In this document: piece by piece, positions 9,007-43,637 of the stretch
Numbering within the stretch: the first letter of the stretch is position 1
Layout of the letters: the number at the start of each line of letters is the position of its first letter
Assembly: GCA_951406725.2 (NCBI GenBank)
Contig: OX597821.1
Coordinates: 80,786,001-80,850,000 of the forward strand
Length of the DNA stretch: 64,000 nt
Direction: 5' to 3'
DNA from: Octopus vulgaris
Lineage: Eukaryota
Position numbers and translations under genes: made by a program
The notes under the pieces: generated by a model
Seen by the model: the letters and a program-made list of their open reading frames with translations, nothing else
What the model was told of the DNA's origin: nothing
Database searches by the model: none

Positions 9007-9052
9007 AACACAACGTTTCGGCTGGTGTACCCTCCAGCTTTCATCAGGTGTC
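9007..9052 (-). ncRNA. minimal hammerhead ribozyme motif (Penelope type)
   Basis: Minus strand GACAC-CTGATGA-AAGCTGG(agggtaca)CCAGCC-GAAA-CG-TT-GTGTT; stems I and II pair and stem III is the palindrome AACGTT. Confidence 0.65.
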
Positions 9053-9352
9053 TTGGGGGAAATTTCGAACCTGGGTTCTTATTCTTAAGAGCTCGTTCAC
9101 CCTTAATTTAAATCTTGTGTATATGTTGTATCAAAACATGTGTAGTGTTTATTAAATAGCTGTCTAGCCATACTCTTTCTTGTTGACTCTATTTTTTCAA
9201 TTTAAATATATAGTGAGAGAAAGAGACTGACAGACAGATATAGCATAGAAATTATATATTTTTTATTTTCCTTTGGCATGTGTGTGTGTGTGTGTGTGTG
9301 TGCCTAAGTGTGCGCATAGATATGAGAGAGTGAGAGTGAAATACTTCCTTAC

Positions 9353-9590
9353 TGTCCATGAATTGTGTAGACATTAGCGTGTTCAGTTGAACCACCATAT
9401 GTTCCACCATAAGCCACAAGGCCCAGCCTAGCGTCTTTAACCTGAACTTGCTCAAACAAACTGTAGACATAATTGTGTGCTGGCTCTTTAGCAATAAGTT
9501 TGTGTTCATCAAGGATAAGAACCACATCACGCTTGATTTTTCGGGTCTTTTCTTTCCAGATTATTTGATCATGGGATTGTGTGCATTTAA
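9353..9590 (-). CDS. LLTP exon 19, start of VWA-like domain
   Basis: cacag|TT AAA TGC...CAT GGA CA|gtaagg; IKC...KRDVVLILDEHK...ARLGLVAYGG...HANVYTIHG; phase 1/2; this frame is not in the ORF track. Confidence 0.9.
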
Positions 9591-9745
9591 CTGTGAATTA
9601 GAAATGTTTTGATATTTGACATTATATTCAGTATGACAAAATTCTTGCACACGCATATATGTTTGAAAGTATATATTTTAAATAAAATGAGACAACAAAA
9701 CCAAGGCAGTGTGAAATTTCTAGGACATTTATAAAGAGAAACGTA

Positions 9746-9793
9746 GTCTTACAGCTGTTTCGGGGACATGAGGTATATCCCTTCATCAGAGAC
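9746..9793 (-). ncRNA. type I hammerhead ribozyme motif, intact core
   Basis: Minus strand GTCT-CTGATGA-AGGGATAT(acctc)ATGTCCCC-GAAA-CAGCTG-TA-AGAC; palindromic stem III ACAGCTGT; GUA cleavage triplet. Confidence 0.75.
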
Positions 9794-11948
9794 AATATGA
9801 GAGAGTTAAATAGAGGTAAATAGTAGAGTCCCATATAAGAAGTTATTTTGGAAAGGGAGAGATATAGGAAGTATAAAGGGAATCTATTTGTTATTACTTG
9901 TTACTTCTATTAAAAATAAAGAATAACTCAAAATATTCTTTTCCCATGTAATCCATATGTTTTCGAGGCTATGCTATTATGTTAATTGATAATGCATCAA
10001 ATGTGTCAATTAGCGGAGTCTTTGATAATTCTTTCCTTACCTCAATGAGGCTGGTGACATATATTAAAAGCCCTTATAGAACTATAGTCATAAAAAGGTA
10101 TAGAACTACATTATCACCCTCAAATTTGAGAAACAAACATTCCTAACTTTTTTTAAACTTCATTGCTTGAGATTGATACAATGAAATTGTTCAAATTGAG
10201 CTCTTAATTTAAGATTAATCAAAATATAGTCTATTTTTAAAATAAAAAAGTTGATTATACTTAAATCCAATTTTTTGCCTTTTATTTATTGTGCCAAAAC
10301 TATGAAATTCTTCATGCTTTCTTCTATCATTGAAGCTAAGATAAATATATTTTACTTTTAAAATAAAAAAGTTATTTAGATCAACACTTGATTGGAGGCA
10401 TTACTTACTCTCCTATAATGTTGCTAGAAATTCTGATGTAAACTTTTTTCCACTGGACCAAATCTCAATTTTTTATGCCAAAATGTAGCTAGGGACCAGT
10501 CCTCTTCAAAAATATTAACGGTGTTCCATTTGGTTAAGAACTGAATTAGTGACAAGCTCTGAAAGATGCTGCATGTGAGTAAATTACATCATCATCATCA
10601 ACATCTTCATCATCATCATCATCATCGTCGTTTAACAGTTACTTTCCATGCTGGCATGGATTGTACAGTTTGGCTGAGGACTGGCAAGCCAGAAGGCTGC
10701 CCCAGGCTCCAATCTGATCTGGTAATGTTTCTACAGCTGGATGCCCTTCCTAATGCCAACCACTCCAAGAGTGTAGTGGGTGCTTTTTACATGCCACTGG
10801 CATATATCACTAATGCATTGGCTCTCAACTTGGTGTCCATATAGCCCCTGAGGGTCCATATAAGATTTCTGGTGGGGATCCATGCAACAAAAAGATAAAT
10901 TGGGGATCCACAGTGGTATTTTAATGACTTCTGAAAAAATTTTATTTTAGATGTTTTCTTTCTACAGATGGAAAATGGTTAAGAACCCCTGATCTGATCT
11001 AACGTAAATTGTATTAAACTAAGTGTTACTGATAATTTCTTGCTTTTGTAAGGAAGGAAAATACATTTTTTAGTAAAATCTGCACAGGCATAGGAGTGGC
11101 TGTGTGGTAAGTAGCTTGCTTACAAACCACATGGTTCCGAGTTCAGTCCCACTGCATGGCACCTTGGGCAAGTATCTTCTACTATAGCCTTGGGCCGACC
11201 AAAGCCTTGTGAGTGAATTTGGTAGAAGTAAACTGAAAGAAGCCCGTTGTATGTATATATATATATATATATATGTATGTGTGTGTGTGTGTGCATGTTT
11301 GTGTGTCTGTGTTTGTCCCCCCAACATCACTTGACAACCGATGGTGGTGTGTTTACGTCTCCGTAACTTAGCGGTTCAGCAAAAGAGACTGATAGAATAA
11401 GAACTTGGATTACAAAGAATAAGTCCTGGGATCGATTTGCTCAACTAAAGACGGTGCTCCAGCATGGCCACAGTCAAAATGACTGAAACGAGTAAGAGAA
11501 TAGAATATGGTTATTAGTGATTGGTATGTCTATTATGAAAAACAAAAATTGGGAGGAATATGAGATCCAAGAAGACAGCTGAATAAAAAGAGTTTGCTTC
11601 TTTTCAGGAATGGAGCATGTTTTCTGGGAGAGGACTATAAAAAAAAAGGGGGTTATATAGCTAGGCTCTGGAATGAGAGCTAATTCTTGTGTAAAATATT
11701 GCAAGGCAACAGCTGAGATTCTGGCTTAGTTTCTGGATAGAGACAGTAGTTTTAAATCCCGTGACTACATGGGAAAGGGTAAATAAAATTTGTTTCAGGA
11801 GATTGTACGCATAATTTTTATTGCCTAAAAGAAATGATATAATATCTAGCAAGATTTGAACATCTATGTTGCAGTAAGAAATCCTTCACCTCATTTTGTT
11901 ATGTCTAATGAACAGTGTTATATTGAAAAATGTTTAGAAAAGTCTTAC

Positions 11949-42074: not shown

Positions 42075-42985
42075 TTTTATCTTTTACTTGTTTCAGTCAT
42101 TAGACTGTGGCCATGCTGGGGCACCACCTTAAGGAATTTTAGTTCAACAAATCAACCACAGTACTTATTTTTTTTAAAGCCTGGTATTAATTCTATTGGT
42201 CTTTTTTGCCAAGTCACTAAGTTACAGGGATGTAAACACACCAACACCAGTTGTCAAGCAGTGGTGGGGGACAAACACAGACACAAAAACACATTCACAC
42301 ATACACACACACATTTATTCATGGCAAGCTTCTTTCAGTTTCCCTCTACATAATCTACTCACAAAATTTGGTCAGCCTGAGTCTATAGTAGAAGATACTT
42401 GCCCAAGGTGCCACACAGTGGGACTGAACCAGGAACCATGTGGTTGGGAAGCAAACTTCTTACCACACCGCTACAACTGATCTCAATAATGCATTCTTTG
42501 TTATTGCCACAAAGGCAGTGGATGTGGGAATGTTACAGAAGCAGGTTGCAAAAAATATACAGATTTACATCAATAACTTTTCTACTATAGGTGCAGGAGT
42601 GGCTGTGTGGAAAGTAGCTTGCTTAACAACCACATGGTTATGGGTTCAGTCCCACTGCATGGCATCTTGAGCAAGTGTCTTCTACTATAGCCTTGGGCCG
42701 ACCAAAGCCTTGTGAGTGGACTTGGTAGACGGAAACTCAAAGAAGCCTGTCGTATATATGTATATATGTATGTGTGTGTATGTTTGTGTGTCTGTGTTTG
42801 TCCCCCTAGCATTGCTTGATAACCAATGCTGGTGTGTTTATGTCCCTGTCACTTAGCAGTTCGGCAAAAGGGACCGATAGAAAAAGTACTGGGCTTACAA
42901 AGAATAAGTCCCGGGGTCGATTTGCTCGACTAAAGGCAGTGCTCCAGCATGGCTGCAGTCAAATGACTGAAACAAGTAAAAGAGT
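42075..42985. mobile_element. inverted pair of family A SINEs
   Basis: Minus copy ~42075-42470 and plus copy ~42595-42985, head to head. Confidence 0.85.
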
Positions 42986-43252
42986 ATAGACACAAGGCTT
43001 GAAATTTGGGGATGGGCGAATAGTCGCTTACATCGACCCCAGTACTCAACTGGTATTTATTTTGTCAACCCTGAAAGAATAAACAGCAAAGTCGACCTCG
43101 GCAGAATTTGAACTCAAAGCTAGAAGACGGATGAAATACTGCTAAGCATTTCCCCCGGCATGCTAACGATTCTGCCAGTTCACTGCCTTCAGATTTACAA
43201 TAATAACAAACAACTTACATGTTTTATATAATAAAAGAATGGAATTTATTAC

Positions 43253-43344
43253 CTGGCCCCAATCATGATCCCAGGTAATATTACCGGTCAGCTTTCCTTT
43301 ATTGTTTGCTTCATTCATGTGACTCAGATATGTATAATCATGAC
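43253..43344 (-). CDS. LLTP exon 5
   Basis: ctacag|GT CAT GAT...GGC CAG|gtaata; GHDYTYLSHMNEANNKGKLTGNITWDHDWGQ; phase 1/0. Confidence 0.83.
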
Positions 43345-43430
43345 CTGTAGTTAGAAATATTTAAAACCATGAATAATCATTATACCTAGGTAGATATATA
43401 TATATATATATATATATATATATATATATA

Positions 43431-43637
43431 TAAATGGAGCTTAACGCAGGTTAATTCAAATACTTTTACTTCTGACACATGTTTCGAAGATTTCACTGAT
43501 ATTATTCCAAAGGAATATATGGTGTAAAACAATGTAATCTTCTCTTCAGGGAAGTGAAGAAATAATATCAGTGAAATCTTCGAAACATGTGTCAGAAGTA
43601 AAAGTATTTGAATTATACCTGCGTTAAACTCCATTTA
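43431..43637. repeat. fold-back inverted repeat (~75-bp near-perfect arms)
   Basis: 43431-43506 versus 43561-43637, next to (TA)n. Confidence 0.9.
43464..43558 (-). ncRNA. type I hammerhead ribozyme motif, intact core
   Basis: Minus strand TTCACTTCC-CTGAAGA-GAAGATT...AATCTTC-GAAA-CATGT-GTC-AGAAGTAAA; C.A mismatch at the first stem I pair. Confidence 0.72.

What the first reader, a model, noticed from the sequence alone, without database searches (positions are those of the whole stretch)
9007..43558. Introns of one gene seeded with hammerhead-ribozyme motifs, three on the pre-mRNA strand
Seen: CTGANGA...GAAA...NTH cores with pairing stems at 9007-9052(-), 9746-9793(-), 21815-21864(+), 30233-30345(+), 40450-40496(+) and 43464-43558(-), plus relics at ~2670, ~40790 and ~44150. 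Their stems are unrelated, so several independent families are present. Established: Penelope-like elements and retrozymes carry minimal type I hammerheads with short palindromic stem III that can act as dimers. Inference: these are non-autonomous Penelope/retrozyme families. The minus-strand copies lie on the LLTP transcript strand and could cut the nascent pre-mRNA or yield small circular RNAs.
Basis: partly seen in the sequence, partly recalled or inferred. Interest (0 to 1): 0.75.

Follow-up and report, generated by a model that had tools for sequence, protein, structure and literature searches.

The report
Penelope retroelement hammerhead debris in introns
The self-cutting RNA motifs are real, but they are broken-off ends of eight common jumping-gene families scattered through this animal genome and are likely inert in this normally spliced gene; one family carries a tRNA-derived start signal that likely spawned thousands of short SINE-like copies.

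Summary
All six motifs are real type I hammerheads: 5 descriptor hits vs 0.2 in shuffles. The relics are two more families. Each motif is one dispersed copy of a multicopy repeat. Families A and F sit directly behind Penelope-like (PLE) coding sequence, D and H more weakly, so most are 5'-truncated PLE ends, not tandem retrozymes.

The gene is not specially seeded: 60 arbitrary genome stretches hold 2.3 such motifs per 64 kb (P=0.09). The host LLTP gene is on the minus strand and is spliced across the introns tested in 4 of 4 runs. Cutting is unlikely: these ribozymes need a same-family partner (none within 10 kb), A and F carry stem mismatches, and F is locked in a 90-bp hairpin.

The notable part is family A, a Penelope/Poseidon-type element whose end repeat begins with a tRNA-Arg-derived A/B-box head. 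Only 83 of 1585 head copies keep the 12 upstream bases, against 2870 of 5260 at a control site, which points to a Pol III, SINE-like template. The window's copy lacks this head. The scan noted this element before on other DNA of this genome.

The parts
8953..9088 (-). Family A: 5'-truncated end of a Penelope/Poseidon-type PLE. Hammerhead at 9007-9052, H17=U at 9012, stem III reduced to the loopless palindrome ACGU, G10.1>A mismatch. The tRNA-derived head is not in this copy. Flanked by a 7-bp direct repeat (8945-8951 / 9088-9094), likely a target-site duplication inside a family D relic.
9095..9208 (+). Family D relic with an internal deletion that removed its CUGAGGA core; interrupted by the family A insertion
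   Evidence: BLASTN 9122-9198, 81%
9678..9882 (-). Family B copy. Hammerhead at 9746-9793, H17=A at 9750, palindromic stem III ACAGCUGU, A.C mismatch at 10.1/11.1. The most intact of the transcript-strand copies. No linked ORF found in 25 loci.
21800..21968 (+). Family C copy (old, divergent; long inverted repeats extend helix I). Hammerhead at 21815-21864 with a 1.1/2.1 mismatch and damaged stem III. Antisense to the gene.
30158..30439 (+). Family D copy. Hammerhead at 30233-30345 with an about 80-nt helix II. Endonuclease remnants upstream in 2 of 25 loci. Antisense to the gene.
40392..40600 (+). Family E copy (4-bp stem II, extended helix I, old and CpG-decayed). Hammerhead at 40450-40496 has a C3.A8 mismatch and is predicted dead. 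Antisense to the gene.
40663..40756 (-). Family H copy on the pre-mRNA strand; G12 lost and stem I damaged; pairs with its inverted twin
40777..40886 (+). Family H inverted twin; 5' stem I strand deleted and G12 lost. The pair folds as an about 90-bp hairpin (z = -19).
43431..43563 (-). Family F: 5'-truncated end of a PLE with a C-terminal GIY-YIG-type endonuclease (12 of 25 loci carry ORF remnants upstream). Hammerhead at 43464-43558, H17=C at 43474, C2.1.A1.1 mismatch.
43561..43654 (+). Inverted partial copy of family F. It is transcribed first on the pre-mRNA and is predicted to sequester the ribozyme's 3' half in an about 90-bp hairpin.
44050..44270 (+). Family G copy; CUGAAGA at 44152 intact, GAAA box destroyed
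2569..2767 (+). Family G inverted pair (2569-2604 on minus, 2618-2767 on plus). GAAA and the cleavage site are kept; the CUGANGA half is lost at the junction.
5114..53294 (-). Host gene exons within the window: large lipid transfer protein (homolog P0001 has Vitellogenin_N, open beta-sheet and VWD). RNA-contig exons: 5114-5291, 6246-6534, 9353-9590, 11949-12065, 13136-13548, 40003-40187, 43252-43342, 45077-45236, 47163-47292, 49150-49352. Other exons by tblastn. The gene runs beyond both ends of the window.

Best explanation
The motifs are dispersed copies of eight multicopy repeat families, four of them linked to Penelope-like retrotransposon coding sequence, and they are likely catalytically silent passengers in the introns of this lipid-transfer gene.

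Mechanism. A PLE RNA carries a hammerhead in its end repeat (pLTR), overlapping the ORF start (shown for A by homology). Reverse transcription likely starts at one of two sites about 30 nt apart just downstream of the ribozyme (two 3'-end clusters shown; the mechanism is taken from Frangieh 2024). It usually stops early, so most insertions are 130-400-nt ends that contain the hammerhead, often with a head-to-head inverted piece and often in microsatellites (shown). After insertion the core decays like its flanks (shown for A).

The short palindromic stem III needs a second same-family ribozyme and probably the element's protein (literature). Neither partner is present in cis, so the pre-mRNA is likely not cut at a rate that matters (inferred).

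In family A the end repeat begins with a tRNA-Arg-derived A/B-box head plus (AAT)n (shown). About 90% of head-bearing copies begin within 12 nt of it (shown), most likely because a short Pol III transcript from that head was a main template (inferred, about 55%).
For: Multicopy: first-look candidates A 3270, B 1587, C 51, D 611, E 953, F 2449, G 2582, H 460; 5260 exact genome matches to one 23-mer of A.

PLE link, family A: the upstream ORF hits RVT_1 at E 1e-9. It has 148 homologs; the top listed ones carry RVT_1 with PF28514/PF26215, and 3 of the 120 listed also carry GIY-YIG PF01541. The N-terminus of an intact 847-aa homolog (P0113) matches the reading frame through A's hammerhead (E 9e-6 for L191). 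Other families: ORF remnants upstream on the same strand in F 12 of 25 and D 2 of 25, and H 1 of 20 (laxer settings).

PLE signatures: A 3' ends cluster at 61-73 (19 of 30) and 95-102 (10 of 30). Inverted upstream pieces in 41 of 195 loci (the C and E counts include internal inverted repeats, and three locus pairs overlap).

Structure: majority readings of seven families keep the core boxes (E with U3/A8) and pair stems I and II with unrelated sequences.

Neutral decay: in 19 A copies chosen by the head and not by the ribozyme, non-CpG core substitutions are 10/183 vs 65/1309 elsewhere, p=0.72.

Background: 22 strict hits in 600 kb.

Inertness: no same-family same-strand second copy in the window +/-10 kb. 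A hammerhead-compatible fold costs 4-5 kcal/mol for A and B and 55 kcal/mol for F in context. Spliced contigs bridge the A, B, E/H and F/G introns in 4 of 4 runs.

Head: directly behind the endonuclease in 30 of 30 ORF-selected loci read by eye (my regex flagged 17). It is colinear with the genome's tRNA-Arg(ACG) genes at 45-47 identities over 73 nt, and the five best of 29 distinct tRNAs compared are all Arg. 24 of 30 head-selected loci start within about 7 nt of the head; 83/1585 vs 2870/5260 genome-wide.
Against: No cleavage or transcription start was measured; the runs are assembled contigs, which cannot show cut ends or circles.

B, C, E and G showed no upstream PLE ORF in 95 loci, so their PLE status rests on architecture only. 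Pfam did not recognise the F or A endonuclease fragments or the F RT fragments; the Neptune-like and Poseidon-like labels rest on recalled motifs plus BLASTP to RT-bearing proteins.

In BLAST-selected sets the core looks more conserved than its flanks (pooled 3.5% vs 5.4%, p=2e-4). I attribute this to selection by similarity to the window copy, but cannot exclude selection in B or H.

B keeps an intact core and an 8-nt palindrome (homoduplex -11 kcal/mol) and could cut with a partner in trans.

Rfam's tRNA model and ARAGORN do not call the head. The Arg(ACG) genes were found with a pattern partly built from the head.
Confidence: 0.85

Rival explanations
1. Transcript-strand copies, above all B, cut the nascent LLTP pre-mRNA, helped by trans-dimerisation with abundant same-family RNAs or by protein. 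They would tune output, or B and A together would release an about 740-nt piece with the 238-nt exon that is then ligated to a circle.
For: A and B flank one exon in the same orientation and both have intact core boxes. The B palindrome is strong. Same-family sequence is present in RNA-type contigs (depth bins). Fast intronic ribozymes can abort processing (PMC2995048 passages, citing Fong 2009).
Against: An A/B heterodimer cannot form stem I because the stems are unrelated. A single min-HHR showed no detectable cleavage and dimers were low (PMC4209133). The Poseidon_Ac hammerhead needed protein and left no cut-site read ends in RNA-seq (PMC11167929). Slow intronic hammerhead cleavage did not block splicing. 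Exon 9353-9590 is included in the main contig in 4 of 4 runs.
Confidence: 0.07
2. Family A's 5' ends pile up at the tRNA-derived head for a reason other than Pol III. The cDNA may fold back or stall at the short palindrome that straddles the head's first base, or the head may mark a Pol II start of the full element.
For: Several copies show a fold-back junction centred on this palindrome. PLE promoters lie in the pLTR (PMC6765202 passages). The acceptor stem is degenerate and Rfam does not call the head.
Against: Many head-starting copies have no fold-back at that point. A and B boxes sit at tRNA positions 8 and 53. The unit has no T4 run in 16 of 19 copies (weak). A 10-fold drop within 12 nt is very sharp for a pause.
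Confidence: 0.4
3. B, C, E and G are true non-autonomous elements (retrozyme-like monomers) moved in trans by PLE proteins, not ends of coding PLEs.
For: No upstream ORF in 95 loci. C and E have a short stem II and a long extended helix I, closer to canonical type I ribozymes. E has a second same-strand match in 5 of 25 loci.
Against: Samples are small and 5' truncation hides ORFs: A showed its ORF in only 2 of 30 such loci. The E repeats are irregular (339-789 nt, some partial), not regular arrays.
Confidence: 0.45
4. The motifs are chance matches to a short consensus.
For: CTGANGA alone is barely enriched (33 vs 25.7 +/- 4.7). Rfam gives no hammerhead hit.
Against: Full descriptor 5 vs 0.2. 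Family majority readings restore pairs that the window copies lack. Position behind PLE ORFs.
Confidence: 0.01

Closest known systems
Minimal type I hammerheads (min-HHR) in pLTRs of metazoan PLEs (Cervera & De la Pena 2014, PMC4209133; read parts 1-2 of 4 and searched supplement file 2; file 1 was not searchable)
   Same: CUGANGA(H) core with an extra base before 10.1, long helix II, 4-5-bp helix I, palindromic or absent loop 3, many families per genome, mostly single truncated copies, some inverted pairs 100-700 bp apart; mollusc examples (Lottia, Crassostrea) are listed.
   Different: Octopus is not among the terms found in the searchable supplement. D, F and G have 57-83-nt helix II arms. 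Family A adds a tRNA-derived head.
Poseidon_Ac of the green anole (Frangieh et al. 2024, PMC11167929; read parts 1-2 of 4)
   Same: The hammerhead overlaps the ORF start, two 3' ends 30-40 bp apart form the 'tail', RT plus C-terminal GIY-YIG. An 836-aa Anolis protein is a 40%-identical homolog of family A's RT; its identity with Poseidon_Ac was not checked.
   Different: No tRNA-like segment is described in the parts read. All family A ORFs seen here carry stops or frameshifts.
Non-LTR retrozymes of animals (Cervera & de la Pena 2020, PMC7229834, passages; Li et al. 2026, bioRxiv 10.64898/2026.07.22.740005, parts 1-2 of 5, supplements closed)
   Same: Type I hammerhead in short repeats related to PLE pLTRs; dispersed monomers occur, many in introns.
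   Different: Defined as tandem arrays with a ribozyme in each unit that yield circles. The copies here are solitary or inverted, and at least two families are joined to coding sequence.
Schistosoma Sm-alpha SINE-like elements (review PMC6765202, passages)
   Same: Pol III-type promoter followed by a type I hammerhead in a short retroposon.
   Different: Canonical, active ribozyme in tandem units, and no PLE ORF is described. In family A the head is an integral part of a coding PLE's end repeat, and the head-to-tail unit stays whole.
Helenus / Cassandra / Ajax TRIMs (Kojima 2024, PMC10886601, passages)
   Same: Small-RNA-derived Pol III promoter inside the terminal repeat of a retroelement, proposed to arise by SINE insertion.
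   Different: LTR class and non-autonomous. The paper expects the autonomous partner not to share the promoter-bearing repeat, and does not mention Penelope. Here the coding element itself carries the head.

Membership tests
Type I minimal hammerhead ribozyme | Core CUGANGA...GAAA...UH with helices I and II | tested here: met
   Majority readings of A, B, D, F, G, H have the full core and paired helices. Window copies A, B, D, F keep the core; C has stem mismatches; E, G, H have lost core bases.
Type I minimal hammerhead ribozyme | Short self-complementary helix III that allows a dimer | tested here: met
   ACGU (A), ACAGCUGU (B), ACAUGUGU (D, F), AUCACGUGAU-type (E); near-palindromes in C, G, H
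Type I minimal hammerhead ribozyme | Covariation of stems | tested here: inconclusive
   Within family A: 96.8% of cells paired and 0 of 11 pairs with a double change in 15 copies. Across eight families the stems pair with unrelated sequence (1 of 40320 permutations), but those representatives were chosen for pairing; the unselected majority readings agree.
Type I minimal hammerhead ribozyme | Self-cleavage | not testable with these tools
   Needs bench assay; folding predicts low occupancy of the active fold
Type I minimal hammerhead ribozyme | Match to an Rfam hammerhead model | tested here: not met
   No hammerhead among the rows listed (150 of 171 shown)
Penelope-like element (families A, F) | RT plus C-terminal GIY-YIG ORF joined to the hammerhead-bearing repeat | tested here: met
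   A: RVT_1 hit and PLE-type homologs. F: RT-thumb and endonuclease remnants in 12 of 25 loci, BLASTP to RT-bearing proteins; Pfam itself did not score the F fragments.
Penelope-like element (families D, H) | ORF joined upstream on the same strand | tested here: inconclusive
   Endonuclease remnants in 2 of 25 D loci and 1 of 20 H loci, E 1e-4 to 1e-8
Penelope-like element (families B, C, E, G) | ORF joined upstream on the same strand | tested here: inconclusive
   None within 900 nt in 95 loci; truncation could hide it
Penelope-like element | 5' truncation, inverted 5' pieces, optional 30-40-bp tail | tested here: met
   Inversions in all eight families; tail measured for A only
Penelope-like element | Clade placement by RT phylogeny (Poseidon, Neptune) | not tested
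   Labels are from recalled motifs and homolog lists; no tree was built
Non-LTR retrozyme | Tandem units each with a hammerhead | tested here: not met
   10 of 195 loci have a same-strand second match within 1.5 kb, at irregular spacing; none in the window
Non-LTR retrozyme | Abundant circular RNA | not testable with these tools
   Only assembled contigs were available
SINE (family A short form) | tRNA-derived head with A and B boxes | tested here: met
   Colinear with tRNA-Arg(ACG), 45-47 identities over 73 nt; score 30 vs 3.9 +/- 3.1 in 1000 shuffles. Not called by Rfam or ARAGORN.
SINE (family A short form) | Copies begin at the head | tested here: met
   24 of 30 loci; 5.2% vs 54.6% keep 12 upstream bases
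SINE (family A short form) | Transcribed by RNA polymerase III | not testable with these tools
   Only indirect: no T4 run in 16 of 19 units
SINE (family A short form) | A lineage separate from the autonomous partner | tested here: not met
   The same head-(AAT)n-hammerhead unit follows the ORF in 30 of 30 ORF-selected loci: it is the coding element's own end repeat
Large lipid transfer protein gene (host) | Vitellogenin_N, open beta-sheet and VWD domains; spliced on the minus strand | tested here: met
   Homolog P0001 (82% at the VWD exon) has the three domains; exons map in order on the minus strand; CT..AC joints

The most novel reading that the evidence does not exclude
A protein-coding Penelope/Poseidon-type retrotransposon has captured a tRNA-Arg-derived Pol III promoter, probably a simple SINE with an (AAT)n tail, inside its own end repeat. 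One element thus makes both its long RNA and a roughly 300-nt Pol III RNA carrying the hammerhead and the RT start sites: a Penelope-mobilised SINE born inside its motor, copied thousands of times. It would be the Penelope counterpart of Helenus/Cassandra and a model for how tRNA-headed hammerhead repeats such as Sm-alpha arise. The short RNA could also supply the dimer partner in trans for intronic copies such as 9007-9052.
Probability: 0.5. Interest if true: 0.6.

Novelty: new variant of a known kind. Interest (0 to 1): 0.38.

Why it matters
As posed, the finding is ordinary. It is what a genome rich in Penelope-like elements looks like: a published octopus annotation lists 190 PLE families covering 6.83% of the genome (PMC13282606 supplement row). 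My sample implies on the order of 100,000 hammerhead-like motifs (22 in 600 kb), at least some tolerated on the sense strand of introns of a spliced gene.

The one unusual piece is family A's tRNA-derived head. If it drives Pol III transcription, it shows that PLE machinery can spread SINE-like RNAs, gives a concrete origin for them, and offers a compact natural substrate for testing what the PLE hammerhead is for, which is still open.

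Tried and rejected
Rfam: no hammerhead in the rows listed; only AT-repeat miRNA noise below cut-off.

First homolog search with the VWD exon found nothing; the full HMMER search did. Pfam did not recognise isolated exons beyond a weak VWD or the endonuclease fragments. The family search with PF26215 was not available. The ESM Atlas gave no answer. 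Metagenome contigs held no relative of P0113, so I could not check whether related PLEs in other animals carry the head.

No RNA holder is on record as RNA. Contigs cannot show cut ends, circles or start sites.

The family-based enrichment of the window (13 vs 4.8 per 64 kb, P=0.001) was rejected as a test because the families were chosen from the window; it also counted one probably spurious C match at 49774. Core conservation in BLAST-selected sets was rejected as biased.

Rejected: that the relics are the re-wired hammerheads noted elsewhere in the scan. G and H read as ordinary type I; I did not scan the window for permuted forms. A U3-A8 covariation in family E is not significant (24/9 vs 3/4, p=0.19).

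Literature searches for a tRNA-headed PLE or Penelope-mobilised SINE listed none. Repbase/Dfam, Ohshima & Okada 1994 on octopus tRNA-derived SINEs and Lunse et al. could not be read, and the head may be described there.

Full report
OBSERVATION. The window is AT-rich animal DNA from a 2.8-Gb genome; the named homologs closest to one of its repeats are from Octopus species, so I read it as an octopus. All six listed motifs are present. A type I descriptor (core, at least 4 of 5 pairs in helices I and II, paired 15.2-16.2) gives 5 hits: 9047-, 9789-, 30238+, 43549- and an unlisted 36494-. Shuffles give 0.195 +/- 0.43 (200 shuffles of bases 1-55200, maximum 2). 21815+ fails on stem mismatches, and 40450+ has A at position 8. 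Rfam lists no hammerhead.

FAMILIES. Each motif is one copy of a dispersed repeat. The relics belong to two more families, G (2670, 44152) and H (40747-, 40779+). I sampled 20-30 loci per family, 195 in all, the best BLAST matches and so biased towards the window copy. Majority readings restore what the window copies lack: A has G10.1-C11.1, F has G1.1, G has its GAAA box and H has a 6-bp helix I. Every family has a short palindromic or near-palindromic helix III, and the families share no BLASTN similarity. Within a family there is no compensatory change (0 of 11 pairs, 15 A copies), as expected for copies of one master. Across families the stems pair with unrelated letters (one search gives 1 of 40320 permutations, but on representatives chosen for pairing). 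In 19 A copies selected by a feature outside the ribozyme, the core mutates like its flanks (5.5% vs 5.0%, p=0.72), and 8 of 19 keep an intact core. BLAST-selected sets show a more conserved core (pooled p=2e-4), which I treat as selection bias.

PENELOPE ORIGIN. Family F has RT-thumb and GIY-YIG-type ORF remnants directly upstream on the same strand in 12 of 25 loci, D in 2 of 25 and H in 1 of 20. Family A has them in 2 of 30. A search with that piece found 2714 candidates and copies reaching more than 2 kb upstream through a full RT. That RT hits RVT_1 and 148 longer proteins with PLE-type domain sets, including an Anolis protein. The N-terminus of one intact homolog aligns with the frame that runs through A's hammerhead, the layout described for Poseidon_Ac (PMC11167929, parts 1-2). 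A's 3' ends fall in two clusters about 30 nt apart (19 and 10 of 30), the PLE tail. Inverted upstream pieces occur in 41 of 195 loci and same-strand second matches in only 10, so these are not tandem retrozymes as defined in Li et al. 2026 (parts 1-2). B, C, E and G showed no upstream ORF in 95 loci and may be non-autonomous. The clade names Poseidon-like (A) and Neptune-like (D, F, H) are from recalled motifs; no tree was built.

IS THE GENE SPECIAL? No. The same descriptor finds 22 hits in 60 arbitrary 10-kb stretches (2.3 per 64 kb), mostly from yet other families; 5 or more in this window has P=0.089. Four of ten copies that retain a CUGANGA-type half lie on the transcript strand (p=0.75).

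HOST GENE. A 2429-aa homolog with Vitellogenin_N, open beta-sheet and VWD domains maps exon by exon on the minus strand from beyond 64000 to beyond 1. Contigs from 4 runs of 4 studies join exons across CT..AC introns 6535-9352 (holding A), 9591-11948 (B), 40188-43251 (E, H) and 43343-45076 (F, G). These runs are only guessed to be RNA; the spliced joints support that.

CAN THE SENSE COPIES CUT? Probably not at a rate that matters. Published single min-HHRs showed no detectable cleavage and dimers little (PMC4209133). The Poseidon_Ac ribozyme cut only with protein. A dimer needs the same family, and no family has a second same-strand ribozyme-bearing copy in the window +/-10 kb. A has no loop 3, a GUU triplet and an A.C mismatch at 10.1/11.1. 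F has a mismatch next to the cleavage site and, on the pre-mRNA, is preceded by its own inverted copy, which traps the 3' half in an about 90-bp hairpin (55 kcal/mol penalty). The H copy has lost G12 and is likewise hairpinned. B is the best candidate: intact core, strong palindrome, 4-bp helix I, predicted active-fold occupancy below 0.1% as a monomer. Nearest-neighbour folding ignores tertiary contacts, so these numbers are rough. Even slow intronic cleavage need not block splicing (PMC2995048 passages).

THE UNUSUAL PART. In family A the endonuclease ORF is followed at once by a 73-nt segment with A and B boxes, then (AAT)n, then the hammerhead (30 of 30 ORF-selected loci by eye, several with deletions). 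The segment is colinear with the genome's own tRNA-Arg(ACG) genes (45-47 identities), and the five best of 29 distinct tRNAs are all Arg. The ACG genes were found with a pattern partly built from the head, whereas the Arg(TCG) and Arg(TCT) genes came from an independent Rfam search. Rfam and ARAGORN do not call the head itself. Of the first 30 of 189 exact head matches, 24 begin within about 7 nt of the head, 5 run on into the ORF side and 1 is mixed. Genome-wide, 83 of 1585 head 23-mers keep the 12 upstream bases, against 2870 of 5260 at an internal control site, so about 90% of head-bearing copies start there. The simplest reading is a Pol III transcript from the captured promoter serving as template; fold-back at the palindrome on the head's edge or a Pol II start are live rivals. 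The window's own copy is truncated downstream of the head. My searches listed no paper on such an element; the nearest are Sm-alpha and Helenus/Cassandra. Repbase and the 1994 octopus SINE paper could not be read. Two earlier notes of this scan describe the same element on other DNA; I had reached this reading before that look-up and tested the 5'-end claim further afterwards.

VERDICT. Interest rests on family A's tRNA-derived head: a new variant of a known kind, 0.38.

Noticed in passing
window ~55300-63100: A 100-N assembly gap followed by an about 7.6-kb satellite (units of about 354-395 bp with 41-bp subrepeats). Residues 112-1013 of the LLTP homolog have no match between the exons at 65127 and 53294, although a transcript contig has about 3.3 kb upstream of exon 49352. 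The gap probably hides most of the Vitellogenin_N exons.
   Followed up: partly
window 43420-43654 and 40663-40886: Head-to-head insertions make about 90-bp near-perfect hairpins in the pre-mRNA, one starting about 80 nt from a 3' splice site. They are possible A-to-I editing substrates in an animal group known for heavy editing (recalled).
   Followed up: no
family E (window 40450-40496; L303-L314): 33 of 40 exact genome matches have T at core position 3 and 27 of 40 have A at position 8. This recalls the U3-A8 variant reported in Schistosoma, but CpG decay of a U3.G8 master also fits.
   Followed up: partly
window 8945-9208: Nested insertion: a family A end sits inside a family D relic, flanked by a 7-bp direct repeat.
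   Followed up: yes
L315-L374 (60 arbitrary 10-kb stretches): 22 strict hammerhead hits, mostly from families not seen in the window, many with 50-90-nt helix II arms.
   Followed up: no
window 36494 (-): A fifth strict descriptor hit with a loose, non-palindromic stem III inside what looks like a SINE head; probably chance.
   Followed up: no
window 8115-8507 (+), 26137-26400 (+): Mariner transposase fragments (Transposase_1, E 1e-17 for the first; the second by eye).
   Followed up: no
window 14015-14269 (+), 35227-35691 (+): C-terminal fragments resembling RTE-type LINE ORFs (by eye, recalled).
   Followed up: no
window 47996-48064 (+): tRNA-like match just under the Rfam cut-off (27.2 vs 29 bits), probably a SINE head. 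At least six copies of another abundant SINE-like repeat lie at 6582, 11086, 36557, 42589, 50636 and 63755.
   Followed up: no
L109 (family C locus), +176 to +466 from the query start: A GIY-YIG-type remnant lies downstream of a family C hammerhead on the same strand (E 2.5e-5), which would fit an N-terminal-endonuclease (Naiad-type) layout; single locus.
   Followed up: no
L158:75-1088 (G000:C3): A 359-nt tandem repeat follows directly after a family F end.
   Followed up: no
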